Assembly (NCBI GenBank): GCA_045633005.1
Contig: JAZQXT010000075.1
Location: forward strand, 20,441-84,440
Length of the DNA: 64,000 nt
Source of the DNA: Eubacteriales bacterium
Lineage (GTDB): Bacteria; Bacillota; Clostridia; Oscillospirales; CAG-272
Reading direction: 5' to 3'
Shown here: one piece after another, positions 1,071 through 33,549 of the stretch
How the letters are laid out: every line of letters begins with the position of its first letter
Numbering within the stretch: the stretch's first letter is position 1
Notes under the pieces: generated by a model
The model's input: the letters and a program-made list of their open reading frames with translations, nothing else
The model's database searches: none
What the model was told of the DNA's origin: nothing
Position numbers and translations under genes: made by a program

Positions 1071-2987
1071 ATGAAAAAACGGATAGTGAGCTTGCTTTTG
1101 TGCCTTGTAATGGCGCTCAGCGTTATTCTCACAGGATGCTCCGGTGGCAACCAGACAGGTGATACCGACGAGGTTACCGATAAGGCATCGTCTTCTACCA
1201 TTACCCTCAAAATGTACGTGGTCTGCGAAAAGCCCGTTTCCGAGGAAACTGCTAAGACCATAAACGCCGCATTTAACAAGATAACCAAGTCCAGCTTCAA
1301 GACTCAGGTAAATCTTAGCTTCTGCACTTATGATACATATTACGATACTATCGAGAACGTTTTTGGTGAGAACCAGAAGCTTGCCGCTCTCAAGGAAGAG
1401 GCAAGAAAGCACCTGAAGGAAGCAAAGAAGGCAGCCAAGGCACAGGGTATTGATGCAAATACCGTAGAGTGGCTTGATGCTTATTATGCAGAGAACCCCC
1501 AGTACGCTCAATTCAGAGGTGAGGATGAAGTGTCCGAGGAGGAGACTTCCGTTACCGCCGAGGAGACCGTAATGGAGGAGATCGAGGGTGCTGACGGCGC
1601 GGCTATAAGCGTTCTTAAATACCCCGACGAGAAGGCAAATCAGATAGATATTTTCTGGTTTGACGGTTATGACAGATATATTGAATATATCGAAAACGAG
1701 TGGGTAGCTGCCGTAGACGATAATGTCGGCGCAAAGCTTAAGGAATATCTTAACCCCGATCTTCTTGCTTGGATCAAGCAGTTCGGTCAGGGAATGACCT
1801 ACGCTATCCCCAACAACAACCCCATTGGCGAGTACACCTACCTCCTTCTTAACAAGGAGCTTATTGACCACTACAGCTACGACCCTGCTACTATGGATTC
1901 TCTTGCTGATTGCGAGAACTTCCTTAAGGACGTGGCAACCTACAGCACGGATTGTCTCCCCGTCGTAGGCGAGCTTCCCATCGTGAATGCTCACTATTGG
2001 TCGTACGATATGTCTACCAACCGCATCAACCCCAACAAGTTCTCCGTTATCGCAAGCAGCACCTTTAATAACCTCATCGGCGGACATATGGATCTTGACG
2101 TGACCAAGACCAATAACCCCGTAATGAGCATTTCTAACATTTTCAGAAATCCCGACTACGTATCTCAGCTCCGTACTATTCAGAAGTATAAGGATCTCGG
2201 TTACGTATCCGCTGCGGCAGGCGCAGATCAGAAGTTTGCTGTAAGCGTTGTTAAGGGCGGCGCAGAGCTTGCTAAGATCTACGGCGATGATTACTATATG
2301 AACGTTCTTGAGTATCCCCGCATTTCCGAGAATGACGTTTGCGGCAGTATGTTCGGCGTTTCCTCTTACTCCGTCAACGTTGCTCGCGCTATGGAGATAA
2401 TTACCGCTATCAATACCAATTCCGCACTTCGCAATATTCTTCAGTACGGTGTGGAAGAGGTTCACTATCAGCTCGATGAGGATGGCAACCTTACTCGCCT
2501 TAACAACGACTATATGATGGACGTAGCAAAGACGGGTAATATGTTTATCGCACATCCCGAGGAGGGCGTTGATGCTGACGTTTGGAGCTTTGCAAAGACT
2601 CAGAACTACAGCGCACTTCCCACTCTCACGCTTGGTTTTGGCATATTCGATCCTGCTAACATCAACAACGAGGGTCCGTCGGCGGGCTCGACAACCACTC
2701 CTCCCACTACCGATGAAAACGGCGAGCCCGTAGAGGAAGAGGATCGCAGACTTGCGGCATATCTCATTCCTCAGGTCGAAAAGATCTCTGCAGAGGTCGA
2801 GGCGGCTCTCAAGGCTGTTAAGAACAGCGAGGAGCTTGAGGCACTTATCACGAAGTATACCGTGGACTGCCAGAAGAACGAGGGCGTTACTACGCACGCG
2901 AGTGCAAGCACTCCTTCTTCCGTATACTATTACTACTTGACTTGGATGCTTGAGTCGGGCTTCAATAGCGAGCTCGTACTTGAGTAA
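1071..2987 (+). CDS. Extracellular solute-binding lipoprotein (ABC-type, large ~638 aa), monocistronic
   Basis: AAGGAGG lies 8 nt upstream of the ATG at 1071. Signal peptide plus lipobox: MKKRIVSLLLCLVMALSVILTGC. The composition is typical of Firmicute sugar-binding lipoproteins. It has its own promoter (991-1019) and terminator (2999-3031). Confidence 0.72.
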   Translation: MKKRIVSLLLCLVMALSVILTGCSGGNQTGDTDEVTDKASSSTITLKMYVVCEKPVSEETAKTINAAFNKITKSSFKTQVNLSFCTYDTYYDTIENVFGENQKLAALKEEARKHLKEAKKAAKAQGIDANTVEWLDAYYAENPQYAQFRGEDEVSEEETSVTAEETVMEEIEGADGAAISVLKYPDEKANQIDIFWFDGYDRYIEYIENEWVAAVDDNVGAKLKEYLNPDLLAWIKQFGQGMTYAIPNNNPIGEYTYLLLNKELIDHYSYDPATMDSLADCENFLKDVATYSTDCLPVVGELPIVNAHYWSYDMSTNRINPNKFSVIASSTFNNLIGGHMDLDVTKTNNPVMSISNIFRNPDYVSQLRTIQKYKDLGYVSAAAGADQKFAVSVVKGGAELAKIYGDDYYMNVLEYPRISENDVCGSMFGVSSYSVNVARAMEIITAINTNSALRNILQYGVEEVHYQLDEDGNLTRLNNDYMMDVAKTGNMFIAHPEEGVDADVWSFAKTQNYSALPTLTLGFGIFDPANINNEGPSAGSTTTPPTTDENGEPVEEEDRRLAAYLIPQVEKISAEVEAALKAVKNSEELEALITKYTVDCQKNEGVTTHASASTPSSVYYYYLTWMLESGFNSELVLE

Positions 2988-2998
2988 TAAACAAAAAC

Positions 2999-3031
2999 GC
3001 GGCGCACCTAAAAGGTGTGCCGCATTTTTTA
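2999..3031 (+). terminator. Intrinsic terminator after the 1071 SBP gene
   Basis: GCGGCGCACC-taaaa-GGTGTGCCGC followed by a T-run. Confidence 0.7.
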
Positions 3032-3733
3032 TAAGAATATCATTGAGCCAACGTCGAAAAGCACTTCGTCCGAAAGCGAGCGGATTGGGGTTTTGTGCCG
3101 AGCGCAAAAATCGCGTATTTTTTCATAGTCGGGATGACGCTCAATGCTTCCCGCAAAGTACAAGGTATCACCGCAAACACCGCTTGCGCCGCCAATAAAG
3201 CCGTATTGGTAAGGCGGGAGCTTGACGTGTCCCGATGATATGAGTAGAGCCTCGCCGCCCTGCGCTGAAAAAGCCTTGCATATCCCCGCATCTGCGGAAA
3301 TTACAGCGCCGTCCGAAAGCGCGGCGCAGGAGCATTTTGCATATCCCTGCGAAACGTCAACTATCGAAAGCCCCGCTTGCTTTGCGAGGGAAACGGCATC
3401 GCCGCAGGTGTACTTTACGTTGCATATTGCGTGTTTTTTAAGGGCGCAAGCGCAAAGGGATACGTCGTTGGGGTAGGACTCGCCTATCACCGTGTCGCAT
3501 AGCCTTATTTCGTAGCCGCACTCGCTGATGCGCGAAAGCTCACGCTCGGCTATCGTGGCGTAGCTCTTGTGTGTCAATACGGTCTTGCCTATACTGAAAA
3601 GCAAAAGGTCTGCGTGCGATGCTATGGGCGCGGAGAGTGATGGATGAGGAGGGAGCAAGACGGGCTCGATTCCGAGCCGCAAAAGCTCATCGCGGCAGGC
3701 GCGGGGTAAACGGCAATCGGTTACACAAAGCAT
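3029..3733 (-). CDS. Conserved hypothetical protein, amidinotransferase/GME-fold-like (recalled as DUF6873-type)
   Basis: GGAGG lies 5 nt upstream of the ATG at 3733 (MLCVTDCRLP...). The ORF-track start at 3778 has no RBS. HADLLLF and a C-terminal GGASGVCGD motif resemble guanidino-modifying-enzyme-fold proteins. The family assignment is from memory only. Confidence 0.5.
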   Translation of the reverse strand: MLCVTDCRLPRACRDELLRLGIEPVLLPPHPSLSAPIASHADLLLFSIGKTVLTHKSYATIAERELSRISECGYEIRLCDTVIGESYPNDVSLCACALKKHAICNVKYTCGDAVSLAKQAGLSIVDVSQGYAKCSCAALSDGAVISADAGICKAFSAQGGEALLISSGHVKLPPYQYGFIGGASGVCGDTLYFAGSIERHPDYEKIRDFCARHKTPIRSLSDEVLFDVGSMIFL

Positions 3734-29798: not shown

Positions 29799-31751
29799 TT
29801 ATTCAACCAACGATATCAGCTTGTTTATAGAATTATATCTTCCCGCGTTGTTTTTGCACTTCATAACGACGGCTATGTATTCCTTGCCGTCGATATCAAA
29901 GACGGCGCAGATGCAATATCCCGCAGAGTTTGTCGTTCCCGTTTTGAAGCCGATGGCGTTGGGATTATAGAAACCGTCTTCGGGATCGAGCAGACGATTG
30001 GTGTTGGTCCACGTTTTTTTCGCGCCGCCAATAAAGGTAACGGTGCATTTGTGCATAGCGGTGATCTCGTTGATGGTCGGATAGGTCTTTCTTATGTGAT
30101 GTGCTATCGTCACAATATCGGCAATGGTTGTGTAATGGTTGTCGTGAGACTCGCCTACCGCATTCATAAAGTGGGATGAATTTGCACCGATCTCCTTGGC
30201 GTAGTCGTTCATAAGTTCGACGAAGTAATCAAGCGCGTCGTTGTCACTCATATTCTTATCGCCCGAAACGAAACGCGAAACGTGTACTGCGATAGTGTAC
30301 GCCGCGTCACTTCCCGAGGGAAGAAGCATTGCCACCAGCGCATCGCGCAGGGTCAATTTTACTCCCACGTCAAGGTATGCTCGGCTCAGCTCGAGGTTGA
30401 CGAGATAAAGCTCGTTCCCCGTCTTGAGCACGGTGTCCTCGGGCAGATATTTGAGTGCGGTTGCCGCGCAAAGAAGCTTTGTGATGCTTGCGGGCGCTAC
30501 GCGCAGATCGGCGTTGCTTTCGCATATCATTTGAAGCGTATCAGCCTCGTAAAGTCCGTAGTATTTGGTAGAGAGCTTGAGAGATGAGTCAGCCAACGCC
30601 TCGCATACCGTGCAGACGTTGTTGGAAAAGGTATGTCCCAATGGGTCGGAATATACGGGCTCAACGATAACGGCGTTGCACGTTGAGCATTTAACGCTTT
30701 CGGTGTAACCGCGTCTTGTGCAGGTGGGCTCGCCGCCTTCGACCGTTACGAGCGTGTGCTCCGTGGGCTCGGTGGTAGTAAATTCGGAGAGGGGAACGCC
30801 GCAACGCGAGCAGCCCAAATGCTCGGATACTCCGTACATTGAGCAGGTAGGTGCTACGGCTGGGATGGTTATGGGGTTATGATCGAGTGCGGGGATGGTT
30901 TCGGGTGCGGTAAAGGTGATCTTGCACGTCGAGCAGATAACGCTGTCGGTGCAGCCGTCCTCCGTGCAGGTGGGCGCCGTGCCCTTTACGGTCTTTTTGC
31001 TGTGTCCGAGGGCGGGAATGACCTCCGATTCAACAAGCACCTCGTTGCATTGCGAGCAGTAGGTCTTTTCGGTCTTGCCGTCCTTCGTGCAGGTAGCCGC
31101 CTTGCCCTTTGCCGTTATCGGCGTGTGCTCAAGTGCGGCGATGGGCTGTGCTTCAAGCGTTACCGCGCCGCATACGGAACACGCTTCGCTTTCGGTGAAG
31201 CCCGCCTCCGTGCAGGTGGGAGCTTTGCCCTCGACCGTAATGACGGTGTGTTCGAGAGCCTTGATGGGCTGTGCTTCAAGCGTTACGGTGCTGCATACGG
31301 AGCACACCTCGCTTTCGGTGTAGCCGTCCTCCGCGCAGGTGGGTGCTTTGCCGTCAACTGCTACGGGCGTGTGACCGACAGCCGCGATCACCTCTCCCTC
31401 GCGTATAACGGCGGAGCAAAGCGCGCATACCGAGCCTTCCGTGCGTCCATCCTCGGTGCAGGTGGGGGCGACCGCCTCAACCGTAACGGAGCTGTGCTCC
31501 GCGAGCGGCAGAGTCTCAACCTCGCTTTCGCCGCACGCGCACGAGCGTTGCTGTGAGCCTTGGGACGTGCAGGTGGATGCCGAGATAAGCGACCATTCGC
31601 CGAATTCGTGAACGTGCGCCGCGGTAGTGCCTGCCGACGCATCACCTGAAGAATCGCATCCTGTGCATAAGATGATAAGTAAGATCAAAAAAACGGTGAA
31701 AAGCGATGACGGTAAAAGTTTGACCATCGGTTTTTTTGTGTTCATAGCCAT
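29799..31751 (-). CDS. D-alanyl-D-alanine carboxypeptidase (S11 penicillin-binding protein) lipoprotein with eight N-terminal 41-aa Cys/His repeats
   Basis: Lipobox LIILCTGC. Eight exact-period repeats (see the repeat feature). PBP motifs are ASITK (SxxK), PSGSD (SxN-like) and FKTGTT (KTG). The start may be M1 (31751) or M3 (31745), and GGAG spacing favours M3. Confidence 0.85.
   Translation of the reverse strand: MAMNTKKPMVKLLPSSLFTVFLILLIILCTGCDSSGDASAGTTAAHVHEFGEWSLISASTCTSQGSQQRSCACGESEVETLPLAEHSSVTVEAVAPTCTEDGRTEGSVCALCSAVIREGEVIAAVGHTPVAVDGKAPTCAEDGYTESEVCSVCSTVTLEAQPIKALEHTVITVEGKAPTCTEAGFTESEACSVCGAVTLEAQPIAALEHTPITAKGKAATCTKDGKTEKTYCSQCNEVLVESEVIPALGHSKKTVKGTAPTCTEDGCTDSVICSTCKITFTAPETIPALDHNPITIPAVAPTCSMYGVSEHLGCSRCGVPLSEFTTTEPTEHTLVTVEGGEPTCTRRGYTESVKCSTCNAVIVEPVYSDPLGHTFSNNVCTVCEALADSSLKLSTKYYGLYEADTLQMICESNADLRVAPASITKLLCAATALKYLPEDTVLKTGNELYLVNLELSRAYLDVGVKLTLRDALVAMLLPSGSDAAYTIAVHVSRFVSGDKNMSDNDALDYFVELMNDYAKEIGANSSHFMNAVGESHDNHYTTIADIVTIAHHIRKTYPTINEITAMHKCTVTFIGGAKKTWTNTNRLLDPEDGFYNPNAIGFKTGTTNSAGYCICAVFDIDGKEYIAVVMKCKNNAGRYNSINKLISLVE
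30597..31616 (-). repeat. In-frame tandem repeat, 8 x 123 bp (41 aa), plus a trailing CxxC
   Basis: GATGGGCTGTGCTTCAAGCGTTAC recurs at 31141 and 31264 (123 bp apart). Protein units end in His at residues 86, 127, 168, 209, 250, 291, 332 and 373. Consensus: T.(V/I)TV.GKAPTCTEDG.TES..CS.C......E...I.AL.H. Confidence 0.9.
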
Positions 31752-31936
31752 CTCCGAAAAGAATTTTTATTATACAAAATTTAATTATATTACATTTGGG
31801 CAAAAATGTCAAGATTAAGTTTTTGCCTCTACGCAACCGTTTGAATTTTCGGCAAATTTCCGAACCAAAATTCATGGCAGTAATTACTTCGGGAAATCGG
31901 TACAAAAATCTTTTTTCTAAAAACTGCAAAAAAGTG

Positions 31937-31965
31937 TTGACAAAACATTTGGATTGTGATAATAT
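31937..31965 (+). promoter_or_regulatory. Sigma-A promoter TTGACA-17-(TGa)TAATAT for tRNA-Lys
   Basis: Hexamers at 31937-31942 and 31960-31965. The tRNA begins 15 nt downstream of the -10. Confidence 0.65.
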
Positions 31966-31979
31966 ATATGGAGCCGCGT

Positions 31980-32055
31980 GATCCATTAGCTCAGACGGTA
32001 GAGCACTTGACTTTTAATCAAGGTGTCCGGAGTTCGAGTCTCCGATGGATCACCA
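31980..32055 (+). tRNA. tRNA-Lys (anticodon UUU), CCA encoded
   Basis: Cloverleaf folded by hand. Acceptor GATCCAT/ATGGATC. D arm GCTC-AGACGGTA-GAGC. Anticodon arm CTTGA-CTTTTAA-TCAAG. T arm CGGAG-TTCGAGT-CTCCG. Discriminator A plus CCA. Total 76 nt. Confidence 0.95.
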
Positions 32056-32090
32056 AAAATCCCCATCCTCAACAGAGGATGGGGATTTTT
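32056..32090 (+). terminator. Intrinsic terminator immediately after tRNA-Lys
   Basis: AAAATCCCCATCC-(8 nt)-GGATGGGGATTTT followed by T. Confidence 0.8.
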
Positions 32091-32092
32091 GA

Positions 32093-32290
32093 TGATCCAC
32101 GAGCGAACTCCGTCCGCAAGCTTGCTTGTAAGCGCCAAGACAAGGAAAACGCCGTTGGCGTTTTCAGTGAAATCCGACTTCGTCGGGTGAAATACGGCTT
32201 CGCCGTGTGAAATATTTGCCTTACGGCAAATGTGAAATATTTTGCTTCGCAAAATGTGAAGGTGGCTTTTTGCTTGCGCAAAAAGCATTT
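32093..32290 (+). repeat. Heptamer-punctuated hairpin array A (GTGAAAT x4 plus GTGAAGG)
   Basis: GTGAAAT occurs at 32167, 32187, 32207 and 32232, and GTGAAGG at 32256. Each is followed by a different short stem with a TTC/TTAC/TTGC loop: CCGAC-ttc-GTCGG, ACGGC-ttc-GCCGT, ATTTGCC-ttac-GGCAAAT, ATTTTGC-ttc-GCAAAAT, GCTTTTTGC-ttgc-GCAAAAAGC. AAAACGCC-gtt-GGCGTTTT (32147-32165) precedes them. Confidence 0.8.
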
Positions 32291-32338
32291 TATAAAATTG
32301 AATTAAGCTTTGTAGAATTAAATTATTAAGGAGCGAAA

Positions 32339-33187
32339 ATGCTTTACGACGTAATGAATGCGGCGGGGTTTCCGAAGGAAGCCCAAGATTATTTTATACT
32401 AAAGGAACAAGAGCTGTTGCGTATGGAGTGCGCGGAGCAGAGGATAGCCGACGCTGTGGCGGCGGTATGCACGGACGGCGCGGAGTTCATCCCGCTTCTC
32501 GAAGCGCTCTCGGCGGATAGCGGCGTGCCGCGCTACGCCTCCGATATGATAGTGCTGCTCTACGCCGCCGAAAAGATGGCGGAGCGATACAAGGAAGCAG
32601 GGCTGTCCGACGAAATATATATTGACACGATATCCGACCTTCGCAACAAGCTTTACGAATGCAAAAAGCTAAAGGGCGAGTGGGGAACGTTCGTGGCGTG
32701 GTGGCTTGCGGGATATTTCAGGCTCAAGCGTTTTGCCCTCGGCAGACTTCAATACGAGGTCGTGGAGCACGAGGGAGGGCACGCGCTGAACTGCCACATA
32801 CCGTCGGGCTCGCCGCTGAATTTCGAAGCCGTTATGGCTTCGCTTCGCAAAGCGTACGATTTTTATCCGCAGGTGAGGCGCGACGGCAAAATTACCGTGG
32901 TATGTCATTCGTGGTTGCTTTATCCGCCGCACAGAGAGCTGTTTTCGGACGGCGGCAACCTGCGCCGTTTCGTAGACCTTTTCACTATTACGGAAAGCAC
33001 CCCCGACCCGAAAAATCAATCCCTTTGGCTGATCTTTTATAAAAATTACAATTCCGTAAGCCTCGACGAGCTTCCGACGGATACCACGCTCCGGCGCGCC
33101 TTCGTAAAGTATCTGCGCGATGGCAACTGTATGGGCTACGGCAGGGGATATTTGATATTTGATGGTGAAAAAGTAGTATCAAAATAA
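32339..33187 (+). CDS. Conserved hypothetical protein, probably a GNAT-like acyltransferase-domain protein
   Basis: AAGGAG RBS. 282 aa. The overall pattern (helical N-terminal domain, then ...RLKRFALGRLQYEV...HIPSGSPL...VVCHSWLLYP) matches proteins I recall being annotated as acyltransferase-domain-containing. Not verified. Confidence 0.5.
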   Translation: MLYDVMNAAGFPKEAQDYFILKEQELLRMECAEQRIADAVAAVCTDGAEFIPLLEALSADSGVPRYASDMIVLLYAAEKMAERYKEAGLSDEIYIDTISDLRNKLYECKKLKGEWGTFVAWWLAGYFRLKRFALGRLQYEVVEHEGGHALNCHIPSGSPLNFEAVMASLRKAYDFYPQVRRDGKITVVCHSWLLYPPHRELFSDGGNLRRFVDLFTITESTPDPKNQSLWLIFYKNYNSVSLDELPTDTTLRRAFVKYLRDGNCMGYGRGYLIFDGEKVVSK

Positions 33188-33259
33188 AAAAGTTACGGGA
33201 ATATGCCGTACTCTAAAGGACAGTTTTTAATTCAACAGAATACAGTACCTACCGACAGA

Positions 33260-33298
33260 AAAAGGACGGAGAGTTGTAAACTCCCCGTCCTCTTTTAT
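33260..33298 (+). terminator. Intrinsic terminator after the 32339 gene
   Basis: AGGACGGAGAG-(7 nt)-CTCCCCGTCCT (one mismatch) followed by CTTTTATTT. Confidence 0.65.
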
Positions 33299-33344
33299 TT
33301 GCAAGCACTGCTTTTTGTAACTACAAATGCGATGATTCAATTCG

Positions 33345-33549
33345 TCGATATGCTTCGCTGCGCTCAGCTCGATATATTTGCCTTGCGGCAAATTCGATAT
33401 AACCGCCCTTGCGGTCGGTTTCGATATGATATTCGCCTATTTTTCTCGTGCGAAGCACATATCGAGTCCGTAAGGACATATCGAGCACGAAGTGCATATC
33501 GATCGCCGTAGGCGAATATCGATGCGTTGTGCCCTTAAGGGCACAACGC
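33345..33549. repeat. Heptamer-punctuated hairpin array B (TCGATAT x4 then its reverse complement ATATCGA x4)
   Basis: TCGATAT occurs at 33345, 33369, 33394 and 33421. ATATCGA occurs at 33459, 33478, 33496 and 33516. Interleaved hairpins include ATTTGCC-ttgc-GGCAAAT (the same stem as in array A), GTCC-gtaa-GGAC, GCAC-gaa-GTGC, TCGCC-gta-GGCGA and GCGTTGTGCCC-ttaa-GGGCACAACGC. Long-range complement: GATATTCGCC (33428-33437) with GGCGAATATC (33511-33520). Confidence 0.8.

What the first reader, a model, noticed from the sequence alone, without database searches (positions are those of the whole stretch)
32093..32290. Array of five to seven short hairpins, each prefixed by the invariant heptamer GTGAAAT, immediately after tRNA-Lys
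- Directly downstream of the tRNA-Lys terminator, GTGAAAT recurs at 32167, 32187, 32207 and 32232, with the variant GTGAAGG at 32256. Spacings are 20, 20, 25 and 24 nt.
- Every interval is filled by a different perfect 5-9 bp stem capped by a U-rich tri- or tetraloop (ttc, ttac, ttgc).
- The stems differ in sequence while the punctuation is constant. That is the inverse of ordinary tandem repeats and formally resembles a repeat/spacer organisation at miniature scale.
- It is not coding: all frames give periodic nonsense.
- A single terminator would suffice here, so the function of a hairpin stack is unexplained. Possibilities include a small structured RNA, a protein-binding array, a recombination or insertion scar, or a family of mobile mini-palindromes.
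Basis: seen in the sequence. Interest (0 to 1): 0.62.

Follow-up and report, generated by a model that had tools for sequence, protein, structure and literature searches.

The report
Gut-1 hairpin-array repeat after tRNA-Lys
The hairpin stack after tRNA-Lys is real and is a copy of the Gut-1 RNA motif, described in 2010 and still of unknown function; here it proves to belong to a large family of repeated hairpin arrays scattered through the genomes of uncultured gut bacteria.

Summary
Four GTGAAAT plus one GTGAAGG punctuate six perfect hairpins at 32145-32286, far beyond chance. The element is not new in kind: Rfam's Gut-1 RNA model (RF01706; Weinberg 2010, human-gut metagenome only, function unknown) matches 32141-32218 above its curated threshold.

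What I add:
- Gut-1 arrays occur in many gut Clostridia MAGs and some Akkermansia MAGs.
- They are multi-copy. Array depth in bovine gut metagenomes is 65-95 times that of the flanks, and assemblies break there.
- They are gained and lost between related species.
- Their neighbours are unrelated housekeeping genes.
- Near tRNA genes, the nearest array is downstream with GTGAWAT on the tRNA sense strand (13 of 13).
- Many copies are composites: a second, inverted array whose linker is the exact complement (22 of 24, four linker types), closed by a covarying long-range helix. One such composite lies 1.1 kb away in this window (33345-33549).
- Stems are 98% Watson-Crick with no G:U preference.
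- Array-family sequence appears in metatranscriptome contigs, without strand information.

Best reading: a REP/BIME-like dispersed hairpin-array repeat, transcribed passively. Here it probably acts as a structured transcript end or fail-safe terminator behind the tRNA-Lys terminator. That function is inferred, not shown.

The parts
31937..31965 (+). Promoter-like site of tRNA-Lys (TTGACA-17-TAATAT with TG)
   Evidence: 10 of 12 consensus positions, extended -10.
31980..32055 (+). tRNA-Lys (anticodon UUU)
   Evidence: ARAGORN; Rfam tRNA model, 70.7 bits.
32061..32090 (.). Terminator T1 of tRNA-Lys: ccccatcctc-aaca-gaggatgggg followed by attttt. An A-run precedes it, so it reads as a terminator on both strands.
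   Evidence: (inverted repeat I1). The same hairpin is conserved in L006, L240 and L242.
32093..32140 (+). Spacer holding the decayed remnant of a long hairpin (intact in L006 as gaactccgctccgcaagc/gcttgcggatggagttc)
32141..32166 (+). Gut-1 5' lead CAAGGAAA and first hairpin P1 (gaaaacgcc-gtt-ggcgttttc, 32145-32165)
   Evidence: Rfam alignment; inverted repeat I6. Conserved as gaaaacgN3-5cgttttc in L006, L008 and L245-L248.
32167..32262 (+). Four units of GTGAAAT plus hairpin (hairpins at 32174-32186, 32194-32206, 32214-32231, 32239-32255), then the variant linker GTGAAGG (32256-32262)
   Evidence: The Rfam Gut-1 match covers 32141-32218.
32265..32299 (+). Terminal hairpin gctttttgc-ttgc-gcaaaaagc with the tail attttataaaatt: a terminator-like end of the array, conserved across the subfamily
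   Evidence: terminator-like: 9 pairs, T-rich tail. Conserved in L006, L008 and L245-L248.
32339..33187 (+). Downstream gene: GNAT-like acyltransferase (NAT_N + GNAT_C). It is a neighbour, not part of the element.
   Evidence: Its orthologues were used to find the same locus in other species.
33345..33549 (.). Second family member, a composite. It has 4 x TCGATAT plus hairpins, then GATATTCGCC, then hairpins separated by 4 x ATATCGA, then tcgcc-gta-ggcgaatatc, and a closing hairpin gcgttgtgccc-ttaa-gggcacaacgc.
   Evidence: Absent from L006, L240 and L241.

Best explanation
The array is a copy of the Gut-1 motif (Rfam RF01706).

What Gut-1 copies are. They belong to a family of dispersed intergenic 'punctuated hairpin arrays' found in uncultured gut Clostridia and some Akkermansia. 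Each array has three to six short, almost perfectly Watson-Crick hairpins separated by a 7-nt linker. The linker is constant within an array but differs between arrays. Many copies carry a second array in inverted orientation whose linker is the exact complement.

How they evolve. Whole arrays are duplicated and dispersed. Whole units are lost or gained, plausibly by recombination or slippage between the identical linkers. Copies tend to sit just after intrinsic terminators. Near tRNA genes, the GTGAWAT strand is always the tRNA sense strand.

What this copy probably does. It lies in the read-through zone after the tRNA-Lys terminator. A polymerase that escapes that terminator would transcribe six hairpins joined by GAA, then meet the array's own last hairpin and its U-rich tail. 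The most likely effect is therefore a compact, nuclease-resistant transcript end and fail-safe terminator. This would shield the GNAT gene from the strong tRNA promoter, much as REP/BIME elements act in enterobacteria. It is probably not a locus-specific regulator.

Shown: family membership, multi-copy dispersal, turnover between species, the orientation rule, and presence in metatranscriptome contigs.
Inferred: read-through transcription, termination or stabilisation, and the mode of spread.
For: Family membership:
- The Rfam Gut-1 model scores 57.2 bits against a threshold of 50, E = 1e-8.
- The same model scores 52-88 bits in all 19 related loci tested.

Dispersal and copy number:
At least 66 of these are hairpin arrays, nearly all in gut Clostridia MAGs, with three contigs from Akkermansia or Akkermansiaceae MAGs.
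- Several 8-kb loci hold two or three copies (L008, L053, L107, L005).
- In four bovine gut DNA metagenomes, summed contig depth over 32165-32270 is 65-95 times that of the flanks, and contigs end at the array.
- This window itself holds a second copy at 33345-33549.

Turnover between species:
- The target array is present in L006 and L240 (downstream GNAT protein 87% identical).
- It is absent in L242, which has the same tRNA-Lys, the same terminator and the same gene (69% identity), and in L243.
- The second copy is absent in L006, L240 and L241, where the intergenic region is 31 nt.

Descent from a master array:
- Eight copies of the subfamily each hold 3-4 of six hairpin types, always in the same order.

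Context:
- In 13 of 13 cases the array nearest a tRNA gene (within 130 nt) is downstream of it and on its sense strand.
- Where a gene's 3' end faces an array, the GTGAWAT strand is the gene's strand in 24 cases and the opposite strand in 9.
- Arrays start 0-5 nt after the terminator's T-run in many loci.
- The published Gut-1 consensus also begins with a pyrimidine run.
- 91 flanking ORFs match 123 Pfam families, none in more than three ORFs, with no transposase, integrase or cas enrichment.

RNA level:
- The + strand folds 12 kcal/mol better than the - strand, thanks to A-U and U-G extensions of each stem.
- The last hairpin is terminator-like.
- Metatranscriptome contigs cover the tRNA, the terminator, the spacer and the array. 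They show zero depth from 32291 to 32395, just to the right of the array.
- The second copy is likewise covered while its flanking genes are not.
Against: - No strand-specific or end-mapping RNA data could be obtained. RNA-run contigs carry no direction.
- The tRNA-to-array depth ratio in the RNA runs (7-15) resembles that in the DNA runs (3-18). DNA carry-over is therefore not excluded.
- Stems show no wobble preference: 1430 Watson-Crick, 9 G:T, 14 A:C and 10 other pairs. This is unusual for hairpins selected as RNA on one strand. A crude control set of nearby terminators has 4.0% G:T and 2.4% A:C.
- Loops are strongly asymmetric. On the strand opposite GTGAWAT they read C(GNA)G or C(GNNA)G (100 of 184), the classically stable loop types. 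This hints that the other strand matters.
- In L245 and L247 a gene on the opposite strand begins 15-20 nt from the array. There the array would be transcribed in the other sense.
- The tRNA-Lys terminator looks strong, so read-through may be rare.
- No mobilising enzyme was identified.
- Copy number per genome was not measured.
Confidence: 0.5

Rival explanations
1. Gut-1 is a trans-acting small RNA, as Rfam classifies it. The hairpins present the single-stranded linkers (GAA within GUGAAAU) as repeated binding sites that titrate or scaffold a protein or a complementary RNA, as CsrB/RsmZ do for CsrA.
For: - The linker sequence is conserved while the stems covary. The published alignment counts 18 covarying positions.
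- Neighbouring genes are unrelated, so a cis-regulatory role for one gene family is unlikely.
- Array-family sequence is present in metatranscriptome contigs.
- In composites the complementary linkers could pair in cis or in trans.
Against: - No promoter precedes the array at this locus or in relatives. Arrays begin directly after a terminator.
- Different linker types coexist in one genome (GTGAAAT and TCGATAT in this window). One dedicated binding partner fits that poorly.
- Copies come and go between close species.
- There is no wobble-pair signature.
Confidence: 0.18
2. The functional transcript is the opposite strand. On that strand the linkers read AUUUCAC and the loops are GNA or GNRA. 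The RNA would start in the AT-rich stretch right of the array and end at the bidirectional terminator T1, converging on the tRNA gene.
For: - Loops on that strand are C(GNA)G or C(GNNA)G in 100 of 184 unique hairpins, against about 3 on the other strand.
- T1 and its counterparts are symmetric A-run/hairpin/T-run terminators.
- A weak promoter-like site lies at 32316-32287 on the - strand.
- GTGATAT-type composites hold TTGAAA-16-TATTAT with TG, pointing into the inverted array.
- In L245 and L247 a gene follows in that sense.
- The 13 of 13 tRNA rule fits convergent sharing of a terminator equally well.
Against: - The promoter-like sites are weak or absent in other members.
- The - strand fold is 12 kcal/mol less stable.
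- The subfamily's conserved terminal hairpin plus T-rich tail reads as a terminator in the + sense.
Confidence: 0.15
3. The element works as DNA. The palindromes extrude as hairpins or cruciforms, or fold in single-stranded DNA, and the linkers are bound by a protein. The array would then serve as a site for supercoil management, recombination or replication-linked processes behind highly transcribed genes.
For: - Stems are 97.7% Watson-Crick, with G:T and A:C equally rare. This is as expected if both strands count equally.
- The d(C-GNA-G) loop type is known to be very stable in DNA (my knowledge).
- Composites are symmetric and fold equally well on both strands.
- In L058 an array is followed by tandem heptamers without hairpins.
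Against: - A 7-bp site is short for a specific DNA-binding protein.
- Several linker types occur in one genome.
- Unit spacing varies (20, 20, 25, 24 nt), so there is no helical phasing.
- There is no orientation bias relative to local GC skew: 22 loci positive, 17 negative.
Confidence: 0.1
4. Each hairpin is an independent insertion of a tiny mobile palindrome that duplicates a 7-bp target. Alternatively, it is a recorded acquisition as in CRISPR, so the heptamers are target-site duplications or duplicated repeats.
For: Linkers are identical within an array but differ between arrays, as repeat duplication at each insertion would give.
Against: - Hairpins are position-specific and inherited. 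Eight copies share six hairpin types in one fixed order.
- Composites from distant MAGs align position by position.
- Units of 9-19 nt are too small to carry recognisable ends.
- No cas genes or transposases lie nearby.
Confidence: 0.03

Closest known systems
Gut-1 RNA motif (Rfam RF01706; Weinberg et al. 2010, Genome Biol 11:R31, PMC2864571)
   Same: - Same sequence and structure: a CARY-GAAA lead, a first hairpin, then hairpins joined by (G)UGAAAU with C-UUC-G loops.
- The match scores above the curated threshold.
- Gut habitat.
- No conserved neighbouring gene.
   Different: - The Rfam model covers three hairpins. This copy has six and its own terminator-like end.
- The paper knew the motif only from 43 human-gut metagenome sequences with no organism. 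Here it is placed in Clostridia and Akkermansia MAGs from ruminant, human and other animal guts.
- It is shown here to be multi-copy, often composite, and variable in its linker.
REP/BIME elements of enterobacteria and pseudomonads
   Same: - Extragenic palindromes at the ends of transcription units and between convergent genes.
- Multi-copy, occurring in clusters and in both orientations.
- Gained and lost between relatives, and transcribed passively.
- Known to stabilise upstream mRNA and to aid termination (my knowledge).
   Different: - In REPs the palindrome itself is conserved and carries a 5' GTAG recognised by a RAYT transposase.
- Here the palindromes differ and the short linker is conserved.
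- No RAYT-like gene was seen next to arrays.
BOX elements of Streptococcus pneumoniae (boxA-boxB(n)-boxC)
   Same: Modular intergenic repeats with a variable number of internal units and strong predicted secondary structure (my knowledge).
   Different: BOX modules are 45-59 bp with conserved sequence. No sequence relation to them was tested here.
CRISPR arrays
   Same: A formal pattern of constant punctuation and variable inserts.
   Different: - The repeats are 7 nt rather than 23-55 nt.
- The inserts are 9-19-nt palindromes in a fixed, inherited order.
- There are no cas genes.
Tandem intrinsic terminators
   Same: T1 and the last hairpin each have a T-rich tail. The array sits in a terminator-rich zone.
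   Different: The four internal hairpins and P1 have no U-run and are separated by a conserved purine-rich linker.

Membership tests
Gut-1 RNA (RF01706) | Covariance-model score at or above the curated gathering score (50 bits) | tested here: met
   57.2 bits, E = 1e-8, model positions 1-77 of 77, at 32141-32218 on the + strand.
Gut-1 RNA (RF01706) | CARY-GAAA lead, first hairpin, then hairpins joined by UGAAAU with CUUCG-type loops | tested here: met
   Residue-by-residue alignment to the family consensus. The published consensus line agrees.
Gut-1 RNA (RF01706) | Pyrimidine run (the terminator's U-tract) directly upstream of the lead, as in the published consensus | tested here: inconclusive
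   In most relatives the T-run abuts the lead. At this locus the terminator's T-run ends 50 nt upstream.
Gut-1 RNA (RF01706) | Found in gut-associated, uncultured bacteria | tested here: met
   The window sequence is held by bovine gut metagenomes. Relatives are gut MAGs.
Gut-1 RNA (RF01706) | Acts as an RNA | tested here: inconclusive
   Array-family sequence is present in metatranscriptome contigs, but without strand information and with DNA carry-over not excluded. There is no wobble-pair signature.
REP/BIME | Extragenic palindromic units at the ends of transcription units | tested here: met
REP/BIME | Tens to hundreds of copies per genome | tested here: inconclusive
   There are two copies in this 64-kb window and up to three per 8-kb locus. 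Depth in metagenomes is 65-95 times that of the flanks, but summed over all organisms. No closed genome was available.
REP/BIME | Copies share one conserved palindrome with a 5' GTAG-type tetranucleotide | tested here: not met
   Stems differ between units and between copies. The conserved part is the 7-nt linker.
REP/BIME | Association with a RAYT (Y1 transposase) gene | tested here: inconclusive
   None was among 91 ORFs flanking arrays. A single RAYT gene elsewhere in a genome could not be looked for.
CRISPR | Repeats of 23-55 nt, unique non-palindromic spacers of similar length, and cas genes | tested here: not met
   The repeats are 7 nt. The palindromic inserts of 9-19 nt occur in a fixed order. 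No cas domains were found in neighbouring genes.
Tandem intrinsic terminators | Each G+C-rich hairpin followed by a U-run | tested here: not met
   On the + strand only T1 and the terminal hairpin clearly qualify. Two further + strand sites listed by the scan are artefacts of the linkers.
Integron attC arrays | Sites of 57-141 bp with R''/R' core sites, gene cassettes between them, and an IntI integrase | tested here: not met
   Units are 20-25 nt with nothing between them. No integrase is near arrays.

The most novel reading that the evidence does not exclude
Punctuated hairpin arrays may be a distinct, undescribed class of structured genetic element. In the composite form, four linkers and their four exact complements zip together. 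The variable hairpins then project from a rod of stacked four-way junctions, closed by a covarying long-range helix. Because the composite is symmetric, transcription entering from either side would build the same structure. It could therefore be a dedicated bidirectional transcription insulator or RNA-end module. Alternatively, it could be the substrate of an unknown mobilisation machinery that targets terminators and tRNA gene ends.
Probability: 0.15. Interest if true: 0.7.

Novelty: new member of a known kind. Interest (0 to 1): 0.42.

Why it matters
Gut-1 has sat in Rfam since 2010 as an orphan: metagenome-only, with no host and no function. This locus and its relatives give it several things.
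- Hosts: gut Clostridia and Akkermansia MAGs.
- A genomic habit: just behind terminators, downstream of tRNA genes in a fixed orientation.
- An evolutionary mode: multi-copy, gained and lost between species, with unit loss from a master array.
- A larger architecture, with inverted arrays carrying complementary linkers, that the three-hairpin model misses.

Practical consequences:
- These arrays break metagenome assemblies.
- They create spurious ORFs, such as 33203-33511 in this window.

If the arrays do shape transcript ends, they would be the Clostridial counterpart of REP/BIME elements.

Tried and rejected
- **Phage link.** The same three-heptamer pattern in viral contigs gave 119 hits, but only 3 had hairpin spacers. 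I rejected a phage association.
- **RNA runs for the wider locus.** A search with 31000-33200 listed none. Only the array itself recovered metatranscriptomes, kept as contigs without strand.
- **Own promoter.** No convincing promoter precedes the array. An internal promoter-like site exists only in GTGATAT-type composites, so it is not a family feature.
- **Replication-strand bias.** The local GC skew of 40 loci, oriented by array strand, was 22 positive and 17 negative, so there is no signal. Many of these 'single' arrays are composites with a degenerate partner, which weakens the test.
- **Conserved neighbour gene.** None was found.
- **Wobble-pair asymmetry to assign the strand.** No asymmetry was found. 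The terminator control is crude.
- **Known protein sites.** I considered half-sites resembling Rex or CRP operators, parS or Noc sites, integron core sites, and anticodon or T-loop mimicry. I dropped them all because the heptamers are direct repeats and the linker sequence varies between arrays.
- **Insertion boundaries.** The array-less orthologue L242 is too diverged outside the terminator to define boundaries or a target duplication.
- **Literature.** Searches for the heptamer, the Rfam accession and Clostridial REP-like repeats found nothing beyond PMC2864571.

Full report
**1. The observation**

The + strand of 32141-32299 reads as follows:
- caaggaaaacgcc-gtt-ggcgttttca
- GTGAAAT ccgac-ttc-gtcgg
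- GTGAAAT acggc-ttc-gccgt
- GTGAAAT atttgcc-ttac-ggcaaat
- GTGAAAT attttgc-ttc-gcaaaat
- GTGAAGG tg gctttttgc-ttgc-gcaaaaagc attttataaaatt

The window holds only 8 GTGAAAT on both strands, against 8.4 expected. Four on one strand within 72 nt is therefore not chance, at about 1e-7 by Poisson arithmetic. A scan for perfect hairpins finds six in a row here and never more than three elsewhere in the 64 kb. Both strands fold far better than shuffles: + strand -61.1 kcal/mol, - strand -48.8 kcal/mol, z about -5.5 each.

On the + strand the AU that ends each heptamer pairs with the GU that starts the next, leaving only GAA unpaired. Upstream lie tRNA-Lys(UUU) at 31980-32055, with its own promoter-like site, and a strong symmetric terminator at 32061-32090. 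Downstream is a GNAT-like acyltransferase gene.

**2. Identity**

Rfam's Gut-1 RNA model (RF01706) matches 32141-32218 over its full length at 57.2 bits, against a gathering score of 50, with E = 1e-8.

Gut-1 was reported by Weinberg et al. 2010 (PMC2864571). They had 43 sequences, all from human-gut metagenomes, with no known organism. They rated it a likely RNA, not cis-regulatory and not a riboswitch, and gave no function. In the searchable paper library, only that paper mentions the family's Rfam accession.

**3. The family is larger than the Rfam model**

At least 66 of them have perfect-hairpin spacers. Nearly all are MAGs of gut Clostridia from ruminants, humans, horse and chicken (Oscillospiraceae, Acutalibacteraceae, Christensenellaceae, unclassified Eubacteriales). 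Three contigs come from Akkermansia or Akkermansiaceae MAGs. The Rfam model scores 52-88 bits in all 19 loci tested, always on the GTGAWAT strand. The same pattern in viral contigs gave only 3 family-like loci out of 119.

*Composites.* Many loci hold a composite. It consists of:
- four GTGAWAT-plus-hairpin units;
- about 30 nt of spacer;
- three or four hairpins separated by the reverse complement of the linker;
- a last hairpin;
- GTTG or ACTG;
- a symmetric A-run/hairpin/T-run terminator.

What Rfam calls Gut-1 is the inverted half of such composites, read on its own GTGAWAT strand.

*Linker complementarity.* In 22 of 24 aligned composites the majority linker of the second array is the exact reverse complement of the first. 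This holds across four linker types: GTGAAAT, GTGATAT, ATGAAAT and TCGATAT.

*Long-range helix.* RNAalifold finds an 11-bp long-range helix. It pairs the sequence just after the fourth linker with the far end of the element. Eight of the 11 pairs have compensatory changes, and only 6 of 264 cells are broken. The same far-end sequence can also pair locally, so two alternative pairings are possible.

*Folding.* Thermodynamic folding of the window's own composite uses linker-to-linker helices instead, at -92 and -95 kcal/mol on the two strands, z -7 and -8.

*Other linkers.* Further linker types were seen as by-catch: ATGAATT, CGAGATT and CATCAT.

**4. A second copy in this window**

At 33345-33549, between the convergent GNAT and DnaJ-domain genes, lies a composite with TCGATAT x4 and ATATCGA x4. 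The 102-aa ORF at 33203-33511, which has no Pfam match, is therefore spurious.

**5. Dispersal and turnover**

*Copy number.* In four bovine gut DNA metagenomes, summed contig depth over 32165-32270 is 65-95 times that of the single-copy flanks. Contigs end at the array. This shows a repeat that is abundant in the community, but it is not a per-genome count. Several 8-kb loci hold two or three copies (L008, L053, L107). Akkermansia L005 has three copies in a 439-bp tandem repeat.

*Gain and loss.* Orthologous loci were found through the GNAT protein.
- L006 and L240 (87% identity) have the same tRNA-Lys, terminator, array and gene.
- L242 (69% identity) has the same tRNA-Lys, terminator and gene but no array.
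- L243 (65% identity) also lacks the array.
- The second copy is absent from L006, L240 and L241, where the intergenic region is a 31-nt bidirectional terminator.

*Fixed unit order.* Eight copies of the target's subfamily were compared: the window, L006, two in L008, and L245-L248. All share the first hairpin (gaaaacgN..cgttttc), the last unit (attttgc..gcaaaat), GT(G/T)AAGG and the terminal gctttttgc..gcaaaaagc hairpin. Between these, each holds three or four of six hairpin types, always in the same order:
- a: ccNttcc
- b: ccgac or ccacc
- c: acggc or acgcc
- d: atttgcc
- e: atttcgc
- f: attttgc

The window has b-c-d-f and L006 has a-c-d-f. So the apparently 'replaced' first hairpin is differential loss of units from a longer master array. 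Recombination or slippage between the identical linkers is a plausible cause.

**6. Context**

- 91 ORFs flanking arrays match 123 Pfam families, none in more than three ORFs. They are housekeeping genes, with no transposase, integrase or cas enrichment.
- Arrays are enriched next to tRNA genes of many identities, and one lies at the end of an rRNA operon.
- In 13 of 13 cases the array nearest a tRNA gene (within 130 nt) lies downstream of it, with GTGAWAT on the tRNA sense strand.
- Where a protein gene's 3' end faces an array, the strands agree in 24 cases and disagree in 9. Where a 5' end faces an array there is no bias, at 10 against 14.
- Arrays often begin 0-5 nt after the terminator's T-run. 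The published consensus also starts with a pyrimidine run.

**7. Which strand, RNA or DNA?**

The evidence conflicts.

For the GTGAWAT strand as RNA:
- the orientation rule above;
- the 12 kcal/mol advantage of the + strand;
- the conserved terminator-like end of the subfamily.

For the opposite strand:
- Among 184 unique hairpins, 83% close with C-G.
- 100 have loops that read GNA or GNNA on the opposite strand, against about 3 on the GTGAWAT strand.
- L245 and L247 have genes that start next to the array in that sense.

For a DNA-level or two-strand constraint:
- In 248 clean stems there are 1430 Watson-Crick pairs, 9 G:T, 14 A:C and 10 other.
- A crude set of 88 nearby terminators is 86% Watson-Crick with 4.0% G:T and 2.4% A:C.

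Metatranscriptome evidence:
- Contigs from four runs hold array-family sequence at depth 90-470.
- They cover the tRNA 3' part, the terminator and the spacer, but nothing from 32291 to 32395.
- The second copy is covered while its flanking genes are not.
- This suggests transcription. However, contigs have no strand, the family is multi-copy, and the tRNA-to-array depth ratio resembles that of the DNA runs.

**8. Interpretation**

The target is a bona fide Gut-1 copy. The best-supported account is a dispersed, REP/BIME-like hairpin-array repeat. It accumulates behind terminators and is transcribed passively.

At this locus it most plausibly forms a compact structured end on transcripts that read through the tRNA-Lys terminator. 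It would stop them at its own last hairpin, insulating the GNAT gene. This function is inferred, not shown.

The rivals remain open:
- a trans-acting sRNA or protein sponge;
- an opposite-sense sRNA ended by the shared terminator;
- a DNA-level role.

An insertion-by-insertion or CRISPR-like origin of the units is nearly excluded by the fixed unit order.

**9. Novelty**

The element is a new member of a known family. Several points are not in the 2010 description and may be worth following up:
- the host assignment;
- the composite architecture with complementary linkers;
- the tRNA orientation rule;
- the master-array unit order;
- the turnover data.

Noticed in passing
window 33345-33549: A second hairpin-array element, a composite with a different linker (TCGATAT x4, then ATATCGA x4). 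It lies between the convergent GNAT and DnaJ-domain genes and is absent from the orthologous loci L006, L240 and L241.
   Followed up: yes
window 33203-33511: A 102-aa ORF with no Pfam match lies entirely within the terminator and hairpin-array region and is almost certainly not a gene. Arrays of this kind can create false ORFs.
   Followed up: partly
window 32046-32099: The inverted repeat around the tRNA-Lys terminator is 25 nt per arm. It reaches into the tRNA's 3' acceptor strand (TGGATCACCA against TGATGATCCA). It is partly kept in L006 but not in the array-less L242.
   Followed up: no
L005 1997-3306 (Akkermansia sp. MAG): A 439-bp unit is repeated three times in tandem. Each unit holds a CGAGATT-linked hairpin array and a GTGAAAT-linked array that scores as Gut-1. 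The family therefore reaches outside the Firmicutes.
   Followed up: partly
L058 about 2900-3080 (- strand): Next to a GTGAAAT array lies a run of tandem heptamers (tATTCAC, tATTCAT) with no hairpins between them, like an array with the hairpins removed.
   Followed up: no
L008 3580-3780 and L248 after position 200: In several copies of the target's subfamily, the array is followed by a strong terminator (gtggttgaag..cttcaaccac). Then comes a second kind of array with CATCAT(T) linkers and GNRA or GAA loops.
   Followed up: no
L062 687-714, and other GTGATAT-type composites: The third hairpin, fourth linker and following sequence together form a promoter-like site, TTGAAA-16-TATTAT with an upstream TG, that points into the inverted array. 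It is not present in GTGAAAT-type composites.
   Followed up: partly
L243 336-2933: In the most distant orthologous locus, resolvase and large serine recombinase genes lie directly upstream of the conserved terminator and the GNAT gene. This suggests an integrated element at this site.
   Followed up: no
L100 2046-2853: A Gut-1 composite sits at the very end of an rRNA operon, in the order 23S, tRNA-Lys, tRNA-Glu, 5S, tRNA-Asn, terminator, array.
   Followed up: no
L242, spacer between the tRNA-Lys terminator and the GNAT gene: The array-less orthologue contains GGCGTTTTC. This is the same 9-mer as the 3' arm of the array's first hairpin in the window. It could be a remnant, a seed or coincidence.
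   Followed up: no
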